Translations under genes and position numbers: made by a program
Part shown: positions 46,059 through 52,100 of the stretch, in pieces
Layout: the number at the start of each line of letters is the position of its first letter
Position numbering within the stretch: the stretch's first letter is position 1
NCBI GenBank assembly: GCA_964639785.1
Contig: CAZXEE010000004.1
Location: 1 to 56,879, forward strand
Source: an uncultured Gammaproteobacteria bacterium
GTDB lineage: Bacteria; Patescibacteriota; Patescibacteriia; Patescibacteriales; UBA12465
Length of the DNA stretch: 56,879 nt
Direction of reading: 5' to 3'
The notes under the pieces: generated by a model
What the model saw: only the letters and a program-made list of their open reading frames with translations
The model's database searches: none
Told to the model about the DNA's origin: nothing

Positions 46059-46087
46059 TTGTCGCCTTATTCTTTTTTTGCTATAAT
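46059..46087 (+). promoter_or_regulatory. Sigma70 promoter of the nrdR-nrdD-nrdG operon
   Basis: TTGTCG, 17 nt spacer, TATAAT. Confidence 0.5.
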
Positions 46088-46094
46088 AACTTTT

Positions 46095-46110
46095 GTACAA
46101 CATCTTGTGG
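46095..46110 (+). promoter_or_regulatory. Candidate NrdR box 1
   Basis: gtACAACATCTTGTgg. The core palindrome ACAACA|TCTTGT has 5 of 6 paired positions and resembles the published NrdR-box pattern aCwAtATaTwGt. It sits at the predicted transcription start. Confidence 0.5.
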
Positions 46111-46127
46111 TGGTAGGCTAAATTAAG

Positions 46128-46143
46128 CCACTAGATGTAGTAT
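46128..46143 (+). promoter_or_regulatory. Candidate NrdR box 2
   Basis: ccACTAGATGTAGTat. The core palindrome is ACTAGA|TGTAGT. Its centre is 33 bp from the centre of box 1. Confidence 0.5.
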
Positions 46144-46220
46144 TTCATCACATTCGGTGTATTTTGTAAAATCAATTAAAAAGGCTTTTGAATACAGCTT
46201 TTTGCCAATAAAAAATCTTT

Positions 46221-46685
46221 ATGAAATGCCCTATTTGCTACCATCCAGATACTAAGGTTTTGGATTCGCGTGTAGCTACCGACGGCCTGTCGATCCGCCG
46301 CCGCCGCGAATGCTTAAAATGCGCCTTCCGTTTTTCTACTTATGAAGAATTGGAAATTTTGGACCTCTCCTTGATTAAGAGGGATGGCCGGCGTGAGGCT
46401 TATAGCCGTGACAAATTGGTTTCAGGACTGAAGAAGGCAAGCGAGAAGAGAATTAGCGATGACAAGTTCAAGAAGCTGATTCATATGATTGAACGCGATA
46501 TCCAAGCTTTAAAGACTAATGAAGTCAGTTCACAAGATGTCGGAAGGATAGTGATGAAGAATTTAAAAAAAGTAGATCAGATCGCTTATATCCGTTATGC
46601 TTCGGTTTATGAATCTTTCAAGAATGTCCAAGAGTTCAAGCGGGAGTTGAATAAGCTCCTGGGAGGGAAAAACAGTAAAAAATAA
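46221..46685 (+). CDS. nrdR: Transcriptional repressor NrdR
   Basis: Zinc ribbon MKCPICYHPDTKVLDSR...RRRRECLKCAFRFSTYE followed by an ATP-cone. Confidence 0.95.
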   Translation: MKCPICYHPDTKVLDSRVATDGLSIRRRRECLKCAFRFSTYEELEILDLSLIKRDGRREAYSRDKLVSGLKKASEKRISDDKFKKLIHMIERDIQALKTNEVSSQDVGRIVMKNLKKVDQIAYIRYASVYESFKNVQEFKRELNKLLGGKNSKK

Positions 46686-46700
46686 ATTAATCATATTACT

Positions 46701-48770
46701 ATGAGCCCTAAGAAAGAGATGATCACCAAAATCATTAAAAGATCAGGAGAAATCACTGATTTTGATCAAACCAAGATTACCGATGCTATTTCTAAGGCAG
46801 CTGAGGCTGTTGGTTTAGAACACCCGGAGAAGTTAGCTAGCAAGCTGACTGAAGAAGCTTTACAGCGGATCAGTAAGAAATTCCATCATCACAGCATTCC
46901 AGCCGTTGAAGAAATCCAGGATATAGTTGAAGAGACATTGATTATCAATCGCCAGATCAAGATGGCCAAGTCTTATATCTTGTATCGAGATCAGCATCGT
47001 CAATTGCGCGATATCAGCGGCAGTACTTTAGAAGAAAAATTGATGGAAGATTATTTGGGTCGGGCTGATTGGCGTTTGAAAGAGAATAGTAATATGAGTT
47101 TCTCAGTTCAGGGCTTGAATAATTACCTGGCTTCAGCTATCTCAGCTAAATATTGGCTCAACAAGATGTATCCGGAAAATATCCGTCAGGCTCATGTTAA
47201 TGGCGATTTTCATGTCCATGATCTTGGCCTTTTGGCCCCATATTGTTGCGGTTGGGATTTGAAGGACTTATTAATTCGAGGTTTCGGTGGTGTGCCGGAA
47301 AAGACTCAAAGTAAGCCAGCAAAACATTTCAGAACCGCTTTGGGACAGATCGTCAATTTCTTCTATACTATGCAGGGCGAAGCTGCTGGAGCTCAGGCTT
47401 TTGCTAACTTCGATACTTATCTAGCTCCTTTTATCCGTTACGATAAATTGAATTTCAAGGAAGCTAAACAATGTTTGCAGGAATTCGTCTTTAACGTTAA
47501 TGTCCCTACCAGAGTAGGCTTCCAGACCCCGTTTACTAATATTACCCTGGATGTCGTTCCATCAAAAATGATCGGTGAAGAAAATGTTATTATTGGTGGT
47601 GAGGTTAAGCCGGAGAAATACAAGGAATTCCAAGAAGAGATGGATATGTTTAATAAGGCTTTAGCCGAAGTGATGTTGGCTGGTGATTCTACCGGAAGAG
47701 TATTCTCGTTCCCGATACCGACTTATAATGTTGATAAGAATTTTGATTGGGATAGAGAATGTTTGAAGCCGATGTGGGAAATGACTGCCAAATATGGCGT
47801 ACCTTATTTCTCTAACTTCGTGAATTCTGATATGGATCGTGATGATGCCCGTTCTATGTGTTGCCGTCTCCGTTTGGATAATCGTGAGCTGCGAAAGCGT
47901 GGCGGCGGTTTGTTCGGTGCTAATCCTTTAACCGGTAGTTTGGGTGTCGTAACCATCAATCTGGCCCGCCTGGGTTACTTAGCTGAAGATAAGGAAGATT
48001 TTAAAAAACGTTTATTAGCCTTAATGGATTTGGCTAAGGAGAGCTTAGAGATTAAGCGTAAGGTGATTGAAAAATTTACTGATGATGGCTTATATCCTTA
48101 TTCTAAACATTATTTAGATAATATTTACGCCCGCTTCGGTTCTTATTGGAAAAACCATTTCAATACCATTGGTATCAATGGTATGAATGAAGCAGCTTTA
48201 AACCTTTTGGGTACTGATATTACTACTCCGGAAGGCCATGCTTTCGCTTCAGAAATCTTGGATTTCATGCGGGAAAAATTGATGGATTATCAGAACGAGA
48301 CTAACAATCTTTATAACCTAGAAGCGACTCCGGGTGAAGGCTGCACTTATCGTTTTGCCAAGAAAGATTTGGAAATGTATCCGGATATCATCTTTGCAAA
48401 TAATAAGGCAGTGAAGCAGGAAGGAGCCGATCCTTATTATACTAATTCCTCGAATTTGCCAGTCGGCTTTACCGATGATTTATTCTCCGCTTTAGACCTG
48501 CAAGATGATCTTCAGACTAAGTATACTGGGGGTACTGTGCTTCATGGTTATATTGGAGAAAGGATTAGTGATCCAGAGGCTACTAAGAATTTGGTTAAGA
48601 AGATTGTTTATGGATATCGTCTGCCTTATTTCACTATCACCCCGACTTTCTCTATCTGTCCGGTCCATGGTTATTTAGCTGGTGAGCATAAATATTGTCC
48701 GAAATGTGATGAAGTTATGGGCTATAAACCGGCTGATTCCAAGGAGGGCGAGACCTGCTGCCAGGGCTAG
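46701..48770 (+). CDS. nrdD: Anaerobic (class III) ribonucleoside-triphosphate reductase, large body lacking the glycyl-radical loop
   Basis: N-terminal ATP-cone (IIKRSGEITDFDQTKI), catalytic region (RSMCCRLRLD, NLEATPGE, YYTNSS) and C-terminal zinc site (ICPVHGYLAGEHKYCPKC). The ORF then ends at TAG with further in-frame stops, and no RVxG[YW] motif occurs before that. Confidence 0.85.
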   Translation: MSPKKEMITKIIKRSGEITDFDQTKITDAISKAAEAVGLEHPEKLASKLTEEALQRISKKFHHHSIPAVEEIQDIVEETLIINRQIKMAKSYILYRDQHRQLRDISGSTLEEKLMEDYLGRADWRLKENSNMSFSVQGLNNYLASAISAKYWLNKMYPENIRQAHVNGDFHVHDLGLLAPYCCGWDLKDLLIRGFGGVPEKTQSKPAKHFRTALGQIVNFFYTMQGEAAGAQAFANFDTYLAPFIRYDKLNFKEAKQCLQEFVFNVNVPTRVGFQTPFTNITLDVVPSKMIGEENVIIGGEVKPEKYKEFQEEMDMFNKALAEVMLAGDSTGRVFSFPIPTYNVDKNFDWDRECLKPMWEMTAKYGVPYFSNFVNSDMDRDDARSMCCRLRLDNRELRKRGGGLFGANPLTGSLGVVTINLARLGYLAEDKEDFKKRLLALMDLAKESLEIKRKVIEKFTDDGLYPYSKHYLDNIYARFGSYWKNHFNTIGINGMNEAALNLLGTDITTPEGHAFASEILDFMREKLMDYQNETNNLYNLEATPGEGCTYRFAKKDLEMYPDIIFANNKAVKQEGADPYYTNSSNLPVGFTDDLFSALDLQDDLQTKYTGGTVLHGYIGERISDPEATKNLVKKIVYGYRLPYFTITPTFSICPVHGYLAGEHKYCPKCDEVMGYKPADSKEGETCCQG

Positions 48771-48816
48771 TAAAAAAAATAAATATAATATATAATTGAA
48801 TTAAGCTAAAGATCTT

Positions 48817-48993
48817 ATGTCAAAAAGATCAGCAATAAAAAATATGGCTCCAACCAAAATTCAAAGACAGGAATGCATCGTTTACAGTCGCGTAGTCGGC
48901 TGGCTGACTCCAGTCAAAAACTATAATCGTGGTAAGGCGGCTGAATACAAAGATCGCAAGACTTTTAAAGTTGACGAAAAACAATTTTGCTAA
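48817..48993 (+). CDS. 58-aa ORF encoding the NrdD glycyl-radical loop (not in the supplied ORF track because it is under 60 aa)
   Basis: Hand translation gives MSKRSAIKNMAPTKIQRQECIVYSRVVGWLTPVKNYNRGKAAEYKDRKTFKVDEKQFC. The segment VYSRVVGWLTPVKNYNRGKAAEYKDRKTF matches the class III RNR C-terminal glycyl-radical consensus (RVxGY-x-x-P-x(3-4)-N-x-GK-x-x-E-x-x-x-R). It is in a different frame (+1) from nrdD and ends 6 nt before nrdG. Confidence 0.65.
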   Translation: MSKRSAIKNMAPTKIQRQECIVYSRVVGWLTPVKNYNRGKAAEYKDRKTFKVDEKQFC

Positions 48994-48999
48994 TAGCTT

Positions 49000-49755
49000 A
49001 TGATAATTGGTGGCCTGGAAAAATTGACCTTGATTGATTATCCGGGAAAAGTAGCAGCTATCGTATTTACGTCTGGATGCAACTTTCGCTGCCAATTTTG
49101 TTACAACCCAATGCTTGTCTGGCCCAGTAAAGAACACGAGTCAGATGAAAGTAAAAATACCGCGGGTCATCCTCGGAATAGAGAGCAGGACAATAGTCCT
49201 ATTCCGTATTCTGAGGATGACCTTTTTCTTTTCCTAAAGAATCGAGCTGGAAAATTGGATGGCGTGGTCATTACCGGTGGCGAACCGACTCTCCATCGTG
49301 ATTTGCCGGAGTTCATCGCAAAGATCAAAGCTTTGGGCTATAGCGTCAAATTGGATACTAATGGTACTAATCCGGAGATGATTAAAAGACTGATAGAAGA
49401 CGGATTAGTTGACTATCTGGCAATGGACATCAAGGCCCCTGAGGCTAAGTATGAACTTGTGACTGGGATACCGATTAACTTTCAAAAAATCAAGGAATCT
49501 GTTAAGATAATAATGCAAAGCGGCTTACCTTATGAATTCAGAACCACTATTTTACCGGCTCTTTTGTCGAAAAAAGATGTCGCTTCTATGGGTAGGTTAT
49601 TACAGGGAGCGGATAAGTGGTATCTGCAGAAATTCAAGGCGGATACTGATTTAGTCAACCAGGATCTTAAGCAAGCCGAAGCCTATAGCGACCAGGATAT
49701 GGAAGGATTGGTAGCGGTTGGGAAAGAATATGTTAAGCTGTGCGCTTGGCGATAA
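49000..49755 (+). CDS. nrdG: Anaerobic ribonucleotide reductase activating protein (radical SAM)
   Basis: CNFRCQFCYNP (CxxxCxxC) and ITGGEPTL. There is an acidic/polar insertion after the cluster motif. Confidence 0.85.
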   Translation: MIIGGLEKLTLIDYPGKVAAIVFTSGCNFRCQFCYNPMLVWPSKEHESDESKNTAGHPRNREQDNSPIPYSEDDLFLFLKNRAGKLDGVVITGGEPTLHRDLPEFIAKIKALGYSVKLDTNGTNPEMIKRLIEDGLVDYLAMDIKAPEAKYELVTGIPINFQKIKESVKIIMQSGLPYEFRTTILPALLSKKDVASMGRLLQGADKWYLQKFKADTDLVNQDLKQAEAYSDQDMEGLVAVGKEYVKLCAWR

Positions 49756-49766
49756 TATAAAATCAT

Positions 49767-50072
49767 ATGAAAAAAGAAGATCTTCAAATTAATCCAGAGC
49801 AGATTGATAGTAATGCCGATATCAGGTCTTTGTTGGAAAAAAACCTGGAAGTTGCTCAGAAGAATTTGGAAGTGAGCGAAGGCATCTTGGTTTGTGCCAA
49901 GACAGTCAAGAGGTATCTCTTTTGGAAAAAAGTTACCAGTATATTTATCTGGACCATTATTATCCTTTCAACTCTGGCCAGTATTTTTTATCTGCCTACT
50001 TTTGTCGGCCAATTACAAAGCCAAGTCCAGTCGATGGGTGGCGGAGTAACCCCCGGCTTATTAGGTTTTTAA
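49767..50072 (+). CDS. Hypothetical small membrane protein
   Basis: ORF of 101 aa with one TM helix (SIFIWTIIILSTLASIFYL). No family recognised. Confidence 0.5.
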   Translation: MKKEDLQINPEQIDSNADIRSLLEKNLEVAQKNLEVSEGILVCAKTVKRYLFWKKVTSIFIWTIIILSTLASIFYLPTFVGQLQSQVQSMGGGVTPGLLGF

Positions 50073-50099: not shown

Positions 50100-52100
50100 A
50101 TGAGTGATATTACTTTTTTTGCCCAAACGACATTCCGCAATCAAATGCGTCGTTTTGGTATCAAAAAAGATGACCGGCGTCGTCACATGTACTTGATCGG
50201 AAAGACCGGTATGGGTAAGTCTACCATCTTGGAGAATATGATTATTGATGATATCCGGGCAGGCCATGGTGTGGCCGTGGTTGATCCTCATGGCGATTTG
50301 GCTGAGAAGATTATCGAATTTATTCCGGAAGAGAGGATCAAGGATGTTATTTATTTTAATCCTTCGGATATTGAATATCCGATTGCTTTTAACGTTGTTG
50401 AACAGGTTGAGCCTCATTTGCGCCACTTAGTCGCTTCCGGCTTGATTGGAGTCTTCCAGAAACTCTGGGCTGATTCTTGGGGTCCTCGTTTGGAATATAT
50501 TTTACGTAATGCCATCCTGGCTATTTTGGATTATCCTGGTTCGACCCTTTTGGGCGTGGTCCGGATATTATCGGATAAGCCATTCAGAAAGAAAGTGGTG
50601 GCTAATATCAAGGACCCGGTAGTGAAGTCTTTTTGGGAAAAAGAGTTCGCTTCTTATGCTGATAAATTTGCTTCTGAGGCAGTATCCCCCATCCAAAACA
50701 AGGTCGGTCAATTCTTGTCGACCGCCTTTATGAGAAATATCGTCGGCCAGGTCAAGTCATCTATCGACATGCGAGAGATCATGGATGGCAGCAAGATCCT
50801 AATCATGAACTTGAGTAAGGGTCGGATCGGTGAAGATAATTCCGCTTTGTTGGGTGCGATGATGGTTACCAAGATCCAGTTAGCCGCTATGAGCCGGGTT
50901 GATATGCCGGAGCAAGATCGAAAAGATTTCTATCTCTATATCGATGAATTCCAGAATTTCTCTACTGACAGTTTTGCTAGCATCTTGTCTGAAGCTCGAA
51001 AATACCGTCTATGCCTGATCATGGCCCATCAATATGTTGAACAGTTGTCGGAGAAGGTTAAGCCGGCGGTTTTTGGTAACGTGGGCACGATGATTGTCTT
51101 CAGGGTGGGAGCAGCTGATGCCGAAGAATTAGTCCGGGAGTTTACCCCGACTTTTACCGAAGAAGACCTGGTTAATCTGCCTAAATATGAAATGTATTTG
51201 AAACTGATGATTGATGGTGTTTCTTCTGATCCTTTCTCAGCCCGCGGTTTGCCGCCTTTGGCTAAGGAAGAAAAGACAGGTAATACTGAAGCGGTGATTG
51301 ATAATTCTCGCGAGGTTTATGCCAGCCGGAAAGAAGATGTTGAAGAGAAGATCTTGCGTTGGCATGATTCTGATGATGAAGATGCGGGTACTACCGGTGC
51401 CAAGAAGGCCGATGAATCTAGAGCGGATGATGCTCATAAATTCAATGCTATTTGTTCCAGCTGCGGCAAAGAGACAAAGACAGTGTTTGAACCGGATGGA
51501 GTCCGGCCGGTATATTGCAAGGATTGCTTGGAAAAGGCTAGAGAACAGAAAAAAGCTGGAATACCCCAGCCACAGCCACAACCCAAACCGGTAGTCGTTC
51601 CGACTCCAGTTGCTCCAAAACCGGTCGTATCAAAATCAGTTATGCCTCCGGTTGCCAAAGTTCCTAATCCGGCTCCGGTTCCAGTTGTGAAGGTTGAAGC
51701 TAAGAAGAACGATGATGATGCTCGTAAGTTCAAAGCCGTTTGTTCTAGTTGCGGCCAAGAGACGAAGACAGTATTTGAACCGGATGGCATCCGCCCGGTA
51801 TATTGCAAGGATTGTTTGGAAAAAGCTAGGGAAGCCAAAAAGAATGAGATAGAAAATCGTCGCCAGGCTAAGCAGGCGGAATTGGCGGAAATGAAACAGA
51901 GATGGAGCCCGGCTAGCGGTCAGACTATCGTTAAGGAAGAATCAGTGGCCAAGCCTTTGTCTTTGAGTGATCTGTCAGCTATCAAGCCGGTAGATTTCAG
52001 AGGAAGGGAAATCAATGAACCGAAGCCGAAGAAGATTGATGACGATGTTGACAATGAGGAGGAAAAAGAGTTAAAAGAAGGAGATACGGTTCAATTTTAA
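50100..52100 (+). CDS. Soluble TraD/TrwB/VirD4-like (T4SS coupling protein-like, FtsK/HerA superfamily) P-loop ATPase with a Pro-rich linker and two C-terminal CxxC-x17-CxxC zinc ribbons
   Basis: Walker A LIGKTGMGKST at aa ~33 with no preceding TM helix. Also VVDPHGDL, Walker B FYLYIDEFQNF and AHQY. The C-terminus carries two copies of CSSCGxETKTVFEPDGxRPVYCKDCLEKARE. Confidence 0.6.
   Translation: MSDITFFAQTTFRNQMRRFGIKKDDRRRHMYLIGKTGMGKSTILENMIIDDIRAGHGVAVVDPHGDLAEKIIEFIPEERIKDVIYFNPSDIEYPIAFNVVEQVEPHLRHLVASGLIGVFQKLWADSWGPRLEYILRNAILAILDYPGSTLLGVVRILSDKPFRKKVVANIKDPVVKSFWEKEFASYADKFASEAVSPIQNKVGQFLSTAFMRNIVGQVKSSIDMREIMDGSKILIMNLSKGRIGEDNSALLGAMMVTKIQLAAMSRVDMPEQDRKDFYLYIDEFQNFSTDSFASILSEARKYRLCLIMAHQYVEQLSEKVKPAVFGNVGTMIVFRVGAADAEELVREFTPTFTEEDLVNLPKYEMYLKLMIDGVSSDPFSARGLPPLAKEEKTGNTEAVIDNSREVYASRKEDVEEKILRWHDSDDEDAGTTGAKKADESRADDAHKFNAICSSCGKETKTVFEPDGVRPVYCKDCLEKAREQKKAGIPQPQPQPKPVVVPTPVAPKPVVSKSVMPPVAKVPNPAPVPVVKVEAKKNDDDARKFKAVCSSCGQETKTVFEPDGIRPVYCKDCLEKAREAKKNEIENRRQAKQAELAEMKQRWSPASGQTIVKEESVAKPLSLSDLSAIKPVDFRGREINEPKPKKIDDDVDNEEEKELKEGDTVQF
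51438..51545 (+). repeat. Intragenic 108-nt repeat, copy 1 (zinc-ribbon module)
   Basis: aaattcaatgctatttgttccagctgcggcaaagagacaaagacagtgtttgaaccggatgga... aligns with copy 2 at high identity by eye. Confidence 0.8.
51726..51833 (+). repeat. Intragenic 108-nt repeat, copy 2 (zinc-ribbon module)
   Basis: aagttcaaagccgtttgttctagttgcggccaagagacgaagacagtatttgaaccggatggc.... It lies 288 nt downstream of copy 1 in the same frame. Confidence 0.8.

What the first reader, a model, noticed from the sequence alone, without database searches (positions are those of the whole stretch)
48650..48999. Split class III ribonucleotide reductase: the glycyl-radical loop is on a separate 58-aa ORF in another frame
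The 689-aa NrdD ORF contains the ATP-cone, the catalytic Cys region (CCRLRLD) and the C-terminal zinc site (CPVHGY...CPKC). It then runs into a non-conserved tail (DEVMGYKPADSKEGETCCQG) and a TAG followed by more in-frame stops. Forty-six nt later, in the +1 frame, an ATG opens a 58-aa ORF (48817-48993). Its core, ECIVYSRVVGWLTPVKNYNRGKAAEYKDRKTF, is the canonical NrdD glycyl-radical motif, with Trp replacing the usual Tyr after the Gly. In normal NrdD this motif follows the zinc site within a few residues, so ~157 nt appear to have been inserted. Two readings are possible. Either the enzyme works as a two-piece glycyl-radical enzyme, with the small peptide acting in trans like the GrcA/YfiD spare part for pyruvate formate-lyase, or nrdD is a pseudogene. 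The intact nrdR, nrdG and small-ORF frames argue for function. More than a single indel is needed to restore a fused gene.
Basis: partly seen in the sequence, partly recalled or inferred. Interest (0 to 1): 0.7.

Follow-up and report, generated by a model that had tools for sequence, protein, structure and literature searches.

The report
Two-gene anaerobic ribonucleotide reductase
The enzyme that makes DNA building blocks without oxygen is here encoded in two pieces, with its radical-carrying glycine loop on a separate ~49-residue peptide; this layout is conserved in hundreds of bacteria (including cultured ones) and some phages, yet I found no paper describing it.

Summary
nrdD (46701-48770, 689 aa) ends just after its zinc site. 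The glycyl-radical loop (YSRVVGW) lies on a separate small ORF in another frame, followed by nrdG.

It is not a pseudogene or an assembly error.
- All 92 related loci holding both parts are split, and none is fused.
- The spacer is 11-193 nt and all three frame offsets occur.
- The peptide core has dN/dS of about 0.03 with synonymous sites saturated.

The same split occurs outside Patescibacteria, in Synergistota and Halanaerobiales, including the finished genome of Halothermothrix orenii. There nrdG sits between the two pieces, which rules out read-through, frameshifting or splicing. Fused relatives (53-56% identity) have only 3-4 residues at the junction. About 35 viral contigs carry the peptide alone.

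The likely true start is the second ATG (48844, 49 aa).

Best explanation: an obligate two-polypeptide class III RNR. NrdG would activate the peptide, which docks into the catalytic barrel in trans. This is inferred, not shown. AlphaFold gave no docking information.

A June 2026 review says stand-alone glycyl-radical proteins are known only for pyruvate formate-lyase. I rate this a new variant of a known kind, and it is testable in cultured strains.

The parts
46059..46087 (+). Promoter-like site (TTGTCG-17-TATAAT, with TG) upstream of nrdR. It is the likely start of an nrdR-nrdD-peptide-nrdG transcript. Imperfect palindromes at about 46095-46162 may be NrdR boxes.
   Evidence: consensus scan, 10 of 12 matches; the number of sites in the region is no higher than in shuffles. 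The sequence was read. Function is not tested.
46221..46685 (+). nrdR, the transcriptional repressor of nrd genes (zinc ribbon plus ATP-cone).
   Evidence: TIGR00244 E 2e-52, above its cutoff; PF22811 and PF03477. It lies in the same position in related loci.
46701..48770 (+). nrdD large subunit (689 aa): ATP-cone, catalytic alpha/beta barrel, thiyl-radical Cys loop and zinc site, but no glycyl-radical loop.
   Evidence: PF13597 E 6e-181 covering profile positions 1-528 of 562; NF006126 1029 bits covering 2-649 of 684. The closest solved structure is T. maritima NrdD 4COI/4U3E.
46728..47000 (+). ATP-cone (allosteric activity site), residues 10-100 of the large subunit.
   Evidence: PF03477 E 2e-20.
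47859..47879 (+). CCRLRLD loop (residues 387-393), holding the cysteine expected to receive the radical from the glycine.
   Evidence: It aligns with the CCRL loop of T. maritima NrdD. C387, C388, R389, L390, R391 and D393 are invariant in 70 relatives; L392 is nearly invariant.
48657..48707 (+). Zinc site C653-P-V-H656 ... C666-P-K-C669, retained on the large subunit.
   Evidence: Read directly from the sequence. C653, H656, C666 and C669 are invariant in 70 relatives. It aligns to the Zn ribbon of 4COI.
48708..48767 (+). Variable C-terminal tail of the large subunit (DEVMGYKPADSKEGETCCQG). Only the first residues, D-E-x-x-G-[YF], recur in relatives.
   Evidence: In relatives the stretch from CPKC to the stop is 13-57 aa long, i.e. 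9-53 aa beyond the motif, and is not conserved.
48771..48843 (+). A+T-rich spacer between the two nrdD pieces. It contains the non-conserved upstream ATG at 48817.
   Evidence: No Rfam match and no terminator-like site. In relatives the spacer is 11-193 nt, unconserved, and occurs with all three frame offsets.
48844..48993 (+). Small subunit, the glycyl-radical peptide: 49 aa from the conserved start (58 aa if 48817 is used). Sequence MAPTKIQRQECIVYSRVVGWLTPVKNYNRGKAAEYKDRKTFKVDEKQFC.
   Evidence: PF13597 positions 531-562 of 562. 107 stand-alone homologues of 41-85 aa. Invariant residues: R, YSRVVGW, TP, E. dN/dS about 0.03.
48898..48900 (+). GGC codon of the predicted radical glycine (Gly19 of the 49-aa peptide, Gly28 of the 58-aa ORF), followed by an invariant Trp.
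   Evidence: The alignment to Y-M-R-I-V-G-Y of T. maritima NrdD places it at the radical glycine. It is invariant in 107 homologues.
49000..49755 (+). nrdG, the radical-SAM activase (CNFRCQFC cluster motif) that should install the glycyl radical.
   Evidence: TIGR02495 NrdG2 E 6e-61, above its cutoff; PF04055. It is adjacent in all related loci.

Best explanation
This is a natural two-polypeptide class III (anaerobic) ribonucleotide reductase, and the split is the ancestral, selected state of a large clade.

Shown by sequence and comparison:
- The large subunit (ATP-cone, barrel, Cys loop, zinc ribbon) stops right after the zinc site.
- The radical-bearing loop (R-V-V-G-W) and the C-terminal strap are made as a separate peptide of about 49 aa from its own start codon.
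- nrdR, nrdD-large, the peptide gene and nrdG lie in a row with no terminator-like site between them.

Inferred:
- The four genes are transcribed together.
- NrdG abstracts the hydrogen from the peptide's glycine, either on the free peptide or on the docked one.
- The peptide loop inserts into the barrel of the large subunit as the covalent loop does in T4, T. maritima and P. copri NrdD. This places the Gly radical next to the CC loop (C387/C388).
- Catalysis then runs as in the T. maritima-like NrdD type. The conserved C182, C387/C388 and E541 fit the thioredoxin-dependent type. That assignment rests on my own knowledge of Wei et al. 2014, not on a test here.

Speculative pay-off: oxygen cleaves the chain at a glycyl radical. 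In this design only a 49-aa peptide would be lost, and the 689-aa subunit could be reloaded.
For: 1. Clean partition of the NrdD profiles between the two ORFs.
2. The split is universal among relatives.
   - 92 of 92 loci with both parts are split. These include the best 80 of the 344 species-representative genomes matched (GTDB), mostly Candidatus Falkowbacteria and other Patescibacteria.
   - All 29 inspected of the 120 best homologues of the large subunit end after CPKC.
3. Spacer length (11-193 nt) and frame offset (0, 1, 2) vary freely.
4. Strong purifying selection on the peptide: median dN/dS 0.03 with dS saturated. R, YSRVVGW, TP and E are invariant across 107 clusters.
5. The catalytic residues of the large subunit are invariant.
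6. The split also occurs in other phyla with a different gene order, nrdD-nrdG-peptide.
   - Halothermothrix orenii H168, finished genome CP001098.1. The peptide is 51 aa and has a canonical AAGGAGG ribosome-binding site.
   - Jonquetella anthropi.
   - Contigs of 2.6-3.2 Mb.
   - 120 of 120 homologues there are truncated.
7. An exhaustive profile search returned short proteins (47-115 aa) for all 150 best 50%-identity clusters. 605 hits were below E 1e-10.
8. Fused relatives at 53-56% identity show the undisturbed junction CPxC-x3-4-(C)EVYSRVVGY.
9. About 35 viral contigs carry the peptide alone. Two that I checked have tail-fibre and endolysin neighbours. This fits action in trans, though host NrdD or NrdG partners were not identified.
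10. The glycyl-radical domain is known to be mobile in single-chain NrdD (PMC11226230). A stand-alone radical protein works for PFL (PMC13450708).
Against: - There is no biochemical, proteomic or transcript evidence that the peptide is made, radicalised or bound.
- AlphaFold2 gave no docking information. The large subunit was modelled (mean pLDDT 75.5), but the tail and peptide (residues 678-738) scored pLDDT 21-31.
- The window is only 57 kb, so a second, fused nrdD elsewhere in this genome cannot be excluded.
- No Shine-Dalgarno motif precedes the peptide gene here. The same holds for the five other gene starts checked in the window (nrdR, nrdD, nrdG, the 101-aa ORF and ftsZ), so this is weak evidence.
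- The literature library covers open-access papers only, so a prior description could have been missed.
Confidence: 0.85

Rival explanations
1. nrdD is a pseudogene, or the split is a sequencing or assembly artefact, and the small ORF is a decaying remnant.
For: A stop codon, a frame change and about 160 extra nucleotides interrupt what is one gene in textbook NrdD.
Against: - The same split appears in 92 of 92 independent loci and in finished genomes of cultured bacteria.
- dN/dS is 0.03.
- Catalytic residues are invariant.
- nrdR and nrdG are intact.
Confidence: 0.01
2. One fused protein is made after all, by programmed frameshifting, ribosomal bypass (as in T4 gene 60), stop read-through or RNA splicing across the spacer.
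For: The spacer is short, and T4 nrdD is known to carry an intron (own knowledge). The two ORFs are adjacent and in the right order here.
Against: - Spacers are unconserved, 11-193 nt long, with offsets of 0, +1 and +2.
- Several in-frame stops lie in the spacer.
- No Rfam family matches the spacer and no intron-sized insert is present.
- There is no matching take-off and landing codon pair in frame (read directly).
- In Synergistota and Halanaerobiales the whole nrdG gene lies between the pieces.
- Some peptide genes are far from any nrdD or sit on phage contigs.
Confidence: 0.02
3. The two chains are joined after translation, by split-intein-like trans-splicing or another ligation.
For: RNR genes are intein hot spots. 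Relatives of this very nrdD carry inteins elsewhere in the barrel (P0118 at 1007 aa; PF14890 and PF14528 hits).
Against: - The large-subunit tail is 9-53 aa beyond CPKC (13-57 aa counted from the motif) and the peptide leader is about 6-10 aa. Both are variable and far too short for intein halves.
- No intein domain was found in either ORF.
Confidence: 0.02
4. The peptide is only a GrcA-like spare part. A normal full-length NrdD elsewhere in the genome does the routine work, and the truncated copy is rescued only when needed.
For: The window covers only 57 kb. Orphan and phage-borne peptide genes exist.
Against: - Every large subunit of the clade lacks the loop constitutively. It is not an oxygen-cleaved product.
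- The truncated gene sits in the nrdR-nrdG operon and is highly conserved.
- No fused paralogue appeared in any locus examined.
Confidence: 0.06

Closest known systems
Canonical single-chain class III RNR NrdD with NrdG (phage T4 1H7A, T. maritima 4COI/4U3E, P. copri 8P23)
   Same: Same family by profile (PF13597, TIGR02487, NF006126). It shares the ATP-cone, barrel, CC thiyl loop, zinc ribbon, R-V-x-G-aromatic radical loop and adjacent radical-SAM activase.
   Different: The radical loop and C-terminal strap are on a separate gene product. About 18 aa of variable tail, a stop, a spacer and a new start with about 8 leader residues replace the 3-5 residue junction. Trp replaces Tyr after the glycine in this lineage.
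GrcA/YfiD (and T4 Y06I), the autonomous glycyl-radical cofactor of pyruvate formate-lyase
   Same: A small stand-alone protein carries the radical glycine motif. It is presumably activated by the cognate activase and works in trans inside a large barrel subunit. Both have a short N-terminal leader before the loop (PMC13450708).
   Different: GrcA belongs to the PFL family, while this peptide hits only the NrdD profile. GrcA rescues an enzyme that normally has its own loop, whereas here the partner never has one. This peptide is about 45-60 aa; GrcA is about 127 aa (own knowledge). The review states that spare parts are known only for formate lyases.
Split class II RNR NrdJa/NrdJb of Pseudomonas aeruginosa
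   Same: An RNR catalytic subunit is expressed as two separate polypeptides from consecutive genes (PMC4520616, abstract seen).
   Different: It is a different RNR class with a cobalamin radical source. I did not read where it is split; from my own knowledge the C-terminal piece carries a Cys-containing tail. Neither piece carries the radical cofactor.
Genes-in-pieces phage RNRs (Aeromonas phage Aeh1 nrdA split by mobE; phiAS4 and Lactococcus phage 949 nrdD)
   Same: RNR genes are interrupted so that separate coding pieces result. The Aeh1 nrdA is reported to be functional (PMC3653736).
   Different: Those are sporadic, recent interruptions in single phages, caused by homing endonucleases, introns or unknown events. 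This one is an ancient, clade-wide split at a fixed position with no mobile element in the spacer.

Membership tests
Class III ribonucleotide reductase NrdD (PF13597 / TIGR02487 / NF006126) | Catalytic alpha/beta-barrel core matching the family profile above its curated cutoff | tested here: met
   PF13597 603 bits (cutoff 26); TIGR02487 507 bits (cutoff 326); NF006126 1029 bits (cutoff 548) for the large ORF.
Class III ribonucleotide reductase NrdD (PF13597 / TIGR02487 / NF006126) | Thiyl-radical cysteine loop in the barrel | tested here: met
   CCRLRLD at residues 387-393 aligns to the CCRL loop of T. maritima NrdD. The two cysteines are invariant in 70 relatives.
Class III ribonucleotide reductase NrdD (PF13597 / TIGR02487 / NF006126) | C-terminal zinc site preceding the radical loop | tested here: met
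   C653-x2-H656 ... C666-x2-C669 is present and invariant. Metal binding itself was not tested.
Class III ribonucleotide reductase NrdD (PF13597 / TIGR02487 / NF006126) | Glycyl-radical loop R-V-x-G-[YFW] on the same polypeptide as the barrel | tested here: not met
   The large ORF ends at profile position 528 of 562. The loop (positions 531-562) is on the separate ORF 48844-48993. The system as a whole has the loop, but the single chain does not.
Class III ribonucleotide reductase NrdD (PF13597 / TIGR02487 / NF006126) | Dedicated radical-SAM activase NrdG | tested here: met
   TIGR02495 205 bits (cutoff 131) for ORF 49000-49755, immediately downstream.
Class III ribonucleotide reductase NrdD (PF13597 / TIGR02487 / NF006126) | Oxygen-sensitive glycyl radical and NTP reduction activity | not testable with these tools
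   This needs anaerobic reconstitution, EPR and activity assays.
GrcA/YfiD autonomous glycyl-radical cofactor | Small stand-alone protein carrying the radical glycine motif | tested here: met
   A 49-aa ORF with YSRVVGW. 107 stand-alone homologues, plus 150 of the 150 best representative clusters being short.
GrcA/YfiD autonomous glycyl-radical cofactor | Homology to the PFL-type glycine-radical domain (PF01228) | tested here: not met
   The only Pfam hit is PF13597 (NrdD). No PF01228 hit at E <= 0.01.
GrcA/YfiD autonomous glycyl-radical cofactor | The partner enzyme has its own glycine loop, and the small protein replaces it after oxygen cleavage | tested here: not met
   The partner large subunits are genetically truncated in every relative examined.
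Pseudogene / decaying gene | Relaxed selection, with lesions that are sporadic and differ between relatives | tested here: not met
   dN/dS is 0.03. The break point is the same in 92 of 92 loci and across phyla.
Split intein / protein trans-splicing | Intein N- and C-fragments flanking the break | tested here: not met
   No intein domain was found in either ORF. The flanks are short and variable (9-53 aa beyond CPKC and about 8 aa), with no conservation.

The most novel reading that the evidence does not exclude
The peptide is a diffusible, replaceable protein cofactor.
- NrdG would radicalise it off the enzyme.
- It would then load into any free large subunit and be swapped out after oxygen damage.
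- That would make it the first obligate in-trans glycyl-radical carrier and the first spare part outside the PFL family.
- Phages of Patescibacteria would exploit this by carrying only the 45-aa peptide gene, to recharge the host's reductase and boost dNTP supply during infection.
Probability: 0.4. Interest if true: 0.85.

Novelty: new variant of a known kind. Interest (0 to 1): 0.75.

Why it matters
All glycyl-radical enzymes are described as carrying the radical glycine on the catalytic chain. The only stand-alone carrier known is GrcA/YfiD for pyruvate formate-lyase. A June 2026 review lists as open whether other such enzymes have one (PMC13450708).

Here a whole clade of class III RNRs appears to depend on a separate 44-60 aa radical peptide. 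The clade spans Patescibacteria, Synergistota and Halanaerobiales, and includes cultured strains.

If confirmed, this would:
- give a minimal, chemically synthesisable substrate for studying how activases install glycyl radicals;
- show that the radical loop can be delivered non-covalently;
- suggest a cheap repair route after oxygen exposure;
- reveal a new phage auxiliary gene.

It also matters for annotation. The large genes are called complete reductases, and the small ones carry the same name or none. Pathway inference in small-genome bacteria can therefore miss an essential part.

Tried and rejected
- AlphaFold2 on the concatenated large subunit plus peptide without an alignment: useless (pLDDT 38).
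- AlphaFold2 with a 70-row alignment of large subunits: the large part was modelled, but the tail and peptide scored pLDDT 21-31, so there is no docking evidence.
- MAFFT misplaced either the peptide-only rows or the large rows (A2; A5).
- The Rfam scan and the terminator scan of the operon found nothing in the spacer.
- A T4 gene-60-type bypass was considered. No in-frame take-off/landing codon pair exists, and spacers are unconserved.
- Conserved Cys-rich ends on the large-subunit tail and the peptide were tested as a possible redox or metal tether. They are not universal: both ends in 16 of 82, peptide only in 34 of 82, neither in 32 of 82.
- Nine literature searches for a described split NrdD, or a spare part for NrdD, found none.
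- tblastn of a phage-type peptide against GenBank phages found no match.
- A single-protein pattern scan of viral contigs with the large subunit was too narrow. It was repeated with an alignment.
Full report
**1.

The ORF list and sequence show nrdR (46221-46685), a 689-aa nrdD (46701-48770), a small ORF (48817-48993, +1 frame) and nrdG (49000-49755). nrdD ends ...CPVHGYLAGEHKYCPKCDEVMGYKPADSKEGETCCQG. A TAG stop follows, then TAA and further in-frame stops.

Profile searches split the NrdD family model cleanly between the two ORFs.
- Pfam NRDD positions 1-528 of 562 fall in the large ORF and 531-562 in the small one.
- NF006126 positions 2-649 fall in the large ORF and 649-683 in the small one.
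- nrdR and nrdG score above their curated cutoffs.

In T. maritima NrdD (4COI) the zinc motif CPVCGK610 is followed by Y616-MRIVGY after five residues. Roughly 160 nt are therefore extra here.

**2. It is not a lesion of this genome.**

A search with the small ORF returned 107 protein clusters, all 41-85 aa and 63-98% identical, from many metagenomes. Seven fetched neighbourhoods showed the same row nrdR, nrdD (684-690 aa), peptide (44-49 aa), nrdG.

A scan of species-representative genomes found 344 genomes with a relative. The best 80 are mostly Candidatus Falkowbacteria or other Patescibacteria. In all 92 loci that hold both parts the gene is split, and none is fused.
- The spacer is 11-193 nt and unconserved.
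- The frame offset is 0, 1 or 2.
- The tail after CPKCDEExG[YF] is variable.

The 120 closest homologues of the large subunit (77-99% identity) are all of similar length. Every one of the 29 I inspected ends after CPKC without a glycine loop.

The peptide core (35 codons, 89 distinct sequences) has a median dN/dS of 0.03 with synonymous sites saturated. R, YSRVVGW, TP and E are invariant. In the large subunit C182, C183, C387, C388, E541 and the zinc ligands are invariant.

**3. The start codon.**

Nearly all relatives begin M[SA]P; two begin at MQTQ. That start is preceded by aataaaaa(a)tATG. In the window this is the second ATG (48844), giving a 49-aa product.

The upstream ATG at 48817 is in frame here apparently because of one extra A in an A-run. 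In L005 my hand reading of the sequence puts a stop two codons upstream.

None of the six other start contexts checked in the window has a Shine-Dalgarno motif. Its absence here therefore says little.

**4. The split reaches beyond Patescibacteria and is undeniably two genes.**

An exhaustive profile search of 1.84 billion representative proteins gave 4241 hits, 605 of them below E 1e-10. The best 150 are all 47-115 aa. Nearly all start with Met and carry RV(V/I)G followed by Y, F or W.

One of them lies on 2.6-3.2 Mb contigs in the order nrdD (687 aa, truncated), nrdG, peptide. A search with that large subunit gave 120 hits, all truncated after CPxC. They include cultured organisms: Halothermothrix orenii, Aminobacterium, Orenia, Halanaerobium, Iocasia, Jonquetella and Aminirod.

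In the finished H. orenii genome (CP001098.1) the order is nrdD (676 aa), nrdG, then a 51-aa peptide. The peptide reads MEKKRQKCEVYSRVVGFLTPV... and follows an AAGGAGG ribosome-binding site. Jonquetella anthropi is the same.

With a whole gene between the pieces, read-through, frameshifting, bypass or splicing cannot make one chain. Another peptide gene lies next to mraZ-rsmH with no nrdD within 4 kb.

RefSeq names the small proteins "anaerobic ribonucleoside-triphosphate reductase" (WP_041605913.1, WP_008521707.1), and UniProt calls one "uncharacterized". No dedicated Pfam or NCBIfam model matched the window's peptide, and no PHROG matched the phage copy tested (L107).

**5. Fused relatives exist and show the ancestral junction.**

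Viral-collection contigs hold fused NrdDs that are 53-56% identical. Their junctions include CPVCGAQCEVYSRVVGY, CPKCGTITEIYSRVVGY and CPYCDEKPLVYSRVVGY.

I built a rough neighbour-joining tree on the shared core (549 columns, no support values). It puts the Patescibacteria and the Synergistota/Halanaerobiales split forms in one cluster next to fused forms. Two further split sequences sit among fused ones. This suggests one main origin and perhaps a second.

**6. Phages.**

One peptide homologue (P0097) sits beside a capsid gene, with no nrdD or nrdG nearby. In IMG/VR, about 35 contigs carry a 44-60 aa peptide with no NrdD-like or NrdG-like ORF within 4 kb.

Two of these contigs (40 and 46 kb) have tail-fibre and amidase neighbours. 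Apart from L113/L181, which carries the whole operon, none of the peptide-bearing contigs appears among viral contigs holding a large subunit of this family. A jumbo-phage contig (L154) has a truncated nrdD next to the peptide region.

A phage carrying only the peptide fits action in trans. However, host NrdD or NrdG partners were not identified.

**7. Mechanism.**

Shown:
- the partition of motifs between the two products;
- the conservation of both products;
- their genetic separability.

Inferred:
- co-transcription from a promoter-like site at 46059-46087, with no terminator-like site inside the operon;
- radical installation on the peptide by NrdG;
- insertion of the loop into the barrel next to C387/C388, as in solved single-chain NrdDs.

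Plausibility rests on three things. The glycyl-radical domain is mobile in P. copri NrdD (PMC11226230). GrcA replaces the loop of PFL (PMC13450708). From my own knowledge, PFL activase accepts short peptides.

AlphaFold2 could not test docking. The idea that the split makes oxygen damage cheap to repair is speculation.

**8. Comparison with what is known, and novelty.**

The system is a class III RNR by every sequence criterion except that the radical loop is not on the catalytic chain. It works like GrcA in being a stand-alone radical carrier. It fails two defining GrcA features: it is not of the PFL family, and its partner has no loop of its own.

Split class II NrdJa/b (PMC4520616) and phage genes-in-pieces RNRs (PMC3653736) are looser parallels.

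Nine literature searches found no description of this architecture. The 2026 review states that spare-part proteins are known only for formate lyases. I rate it a new variant of a known kind. The caveat is that only open-access literature was searched.

**9. Verdict.**

- The pseudogene reading is rejected.
- Confidence in an obligate two-polypeptide enzyme is 0.85.
- Interest is 0.75, because the result bears on an explicitly open question and can be tested with cultured strains and a synthesisable peptide.

Noticed in passing
L013 556-693; L102 4001-4138; L107 3986-4120; also L101-L112, L114-L116, L120, L121, L127, L136: Phage-like contigs carry a 44-60 aa NrdD glycyl-radical peptide (mostly YSRVVGW type) with no NrdD-like or NrdG-like ORF within 4 kb. 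Neighbours include a capsid gene, tail-fibre genes and an amidase/endolysin. This may be a new phage auxiliary gene. GenBank phages gave no match.
   Followed up: partly
Relatives P0118 (1007 aa), P0455, P0469, P0476, P0478, P0488; L154 924-3977; L195, L197, L206: Many large subunits of this split clade are 850-1030 aa. P0118 carries an intein-like insert in the barrel (after ...VGFQ), and others have PF14890 or PF14528 hits. The gene is therefore both split and an intein target.
   Followed up: no
window 49767-50072: A 101-aa ORF with one hydrophobic stretch and no Pfam hit follows nrdG. An ORF of 92-118 aa sits in the same place in Patescibacteria relatives (L001, L005, L009, L010, L011, L014), but not in H. 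orenii or Jonquetella. Its function is unknown, and it may belong to the operon.
   Followed up: partly
window 50100-52100: A 666-aa TraG/VirD4-like ATPase follows. Relatives' copies hit TrwB_AAD_bind, TraG-D_C and zf_Tbcl_2. Its C-terminus has two near-identical CSSCGxETKTVFEPDGxRPVYCKDCLEKAREx repeats. It is syntenic with the nrd operon in several Falkowbacteria loci.
   Followed up: no
window 46095-46162: Three imperfect palindromes (ACAAnnnnTTGT, ACTAnnnnTAGT, CACAnnnnGTGT) lie just downstream of the promoter-like site and upstream of nrdR. They are candidate NrdR boxes, which would mean autoregulation of the operon.
   Followed up: no
window 48750-48767 and 48976-48990; relatives: The large-subunit tail often ends in paired cysteines (CCQG, CCEA, CSTC, ACC), and the peptide often ends with Cys (KQFC, KVCAE, NSCC, CGC). 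The pattern is frequent but not universal: both ends in 16 of 82, peptide only in 34 of 82, neither in 32 of 82. The meaning is unknown.
   Followed up: partly
P0275 (115 aa); L122, L123, L126, L129-L133: Some stand-alone proteins are 79-161 aa (ORF lengths, stop to stop). P0275 carries its own CxxC...CxxC zinc ribbon ahead of the glycine loop. This may be a second split position, before rather than after the zinc site, mostly on viral contigs.
   Followed up: no
L095 4001-4147: An orphan 48-aa peptide gene (RVVGY type) lies directly after mraZ-rsmH, with no nrdD or nrdG within 4 kb. This shows that the peptide gene can be unlinked from the large subunit.
   Followed up: no
window 49120-49225 (NrdG residues about 41-75): NrdG here is 251 aa, against 229-231 aa in H. 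orenii, Jonquetella and L098. It has a charged, low-complexity insert (PSKEHESDESKNTAGHPRNREQDNSPIPYSEDD) just after the CX3CX2C cluster motif.
   Followed up: no
window 48817-48843: The 9-codon N-terminal extension of the small ORF appears to be in frame only because of one extra A in an A-run relative to close relatives. By my hand reading of L005/L015, those have a TAA stop two codons upstream of the conserved ATG.
   Followed up: yes
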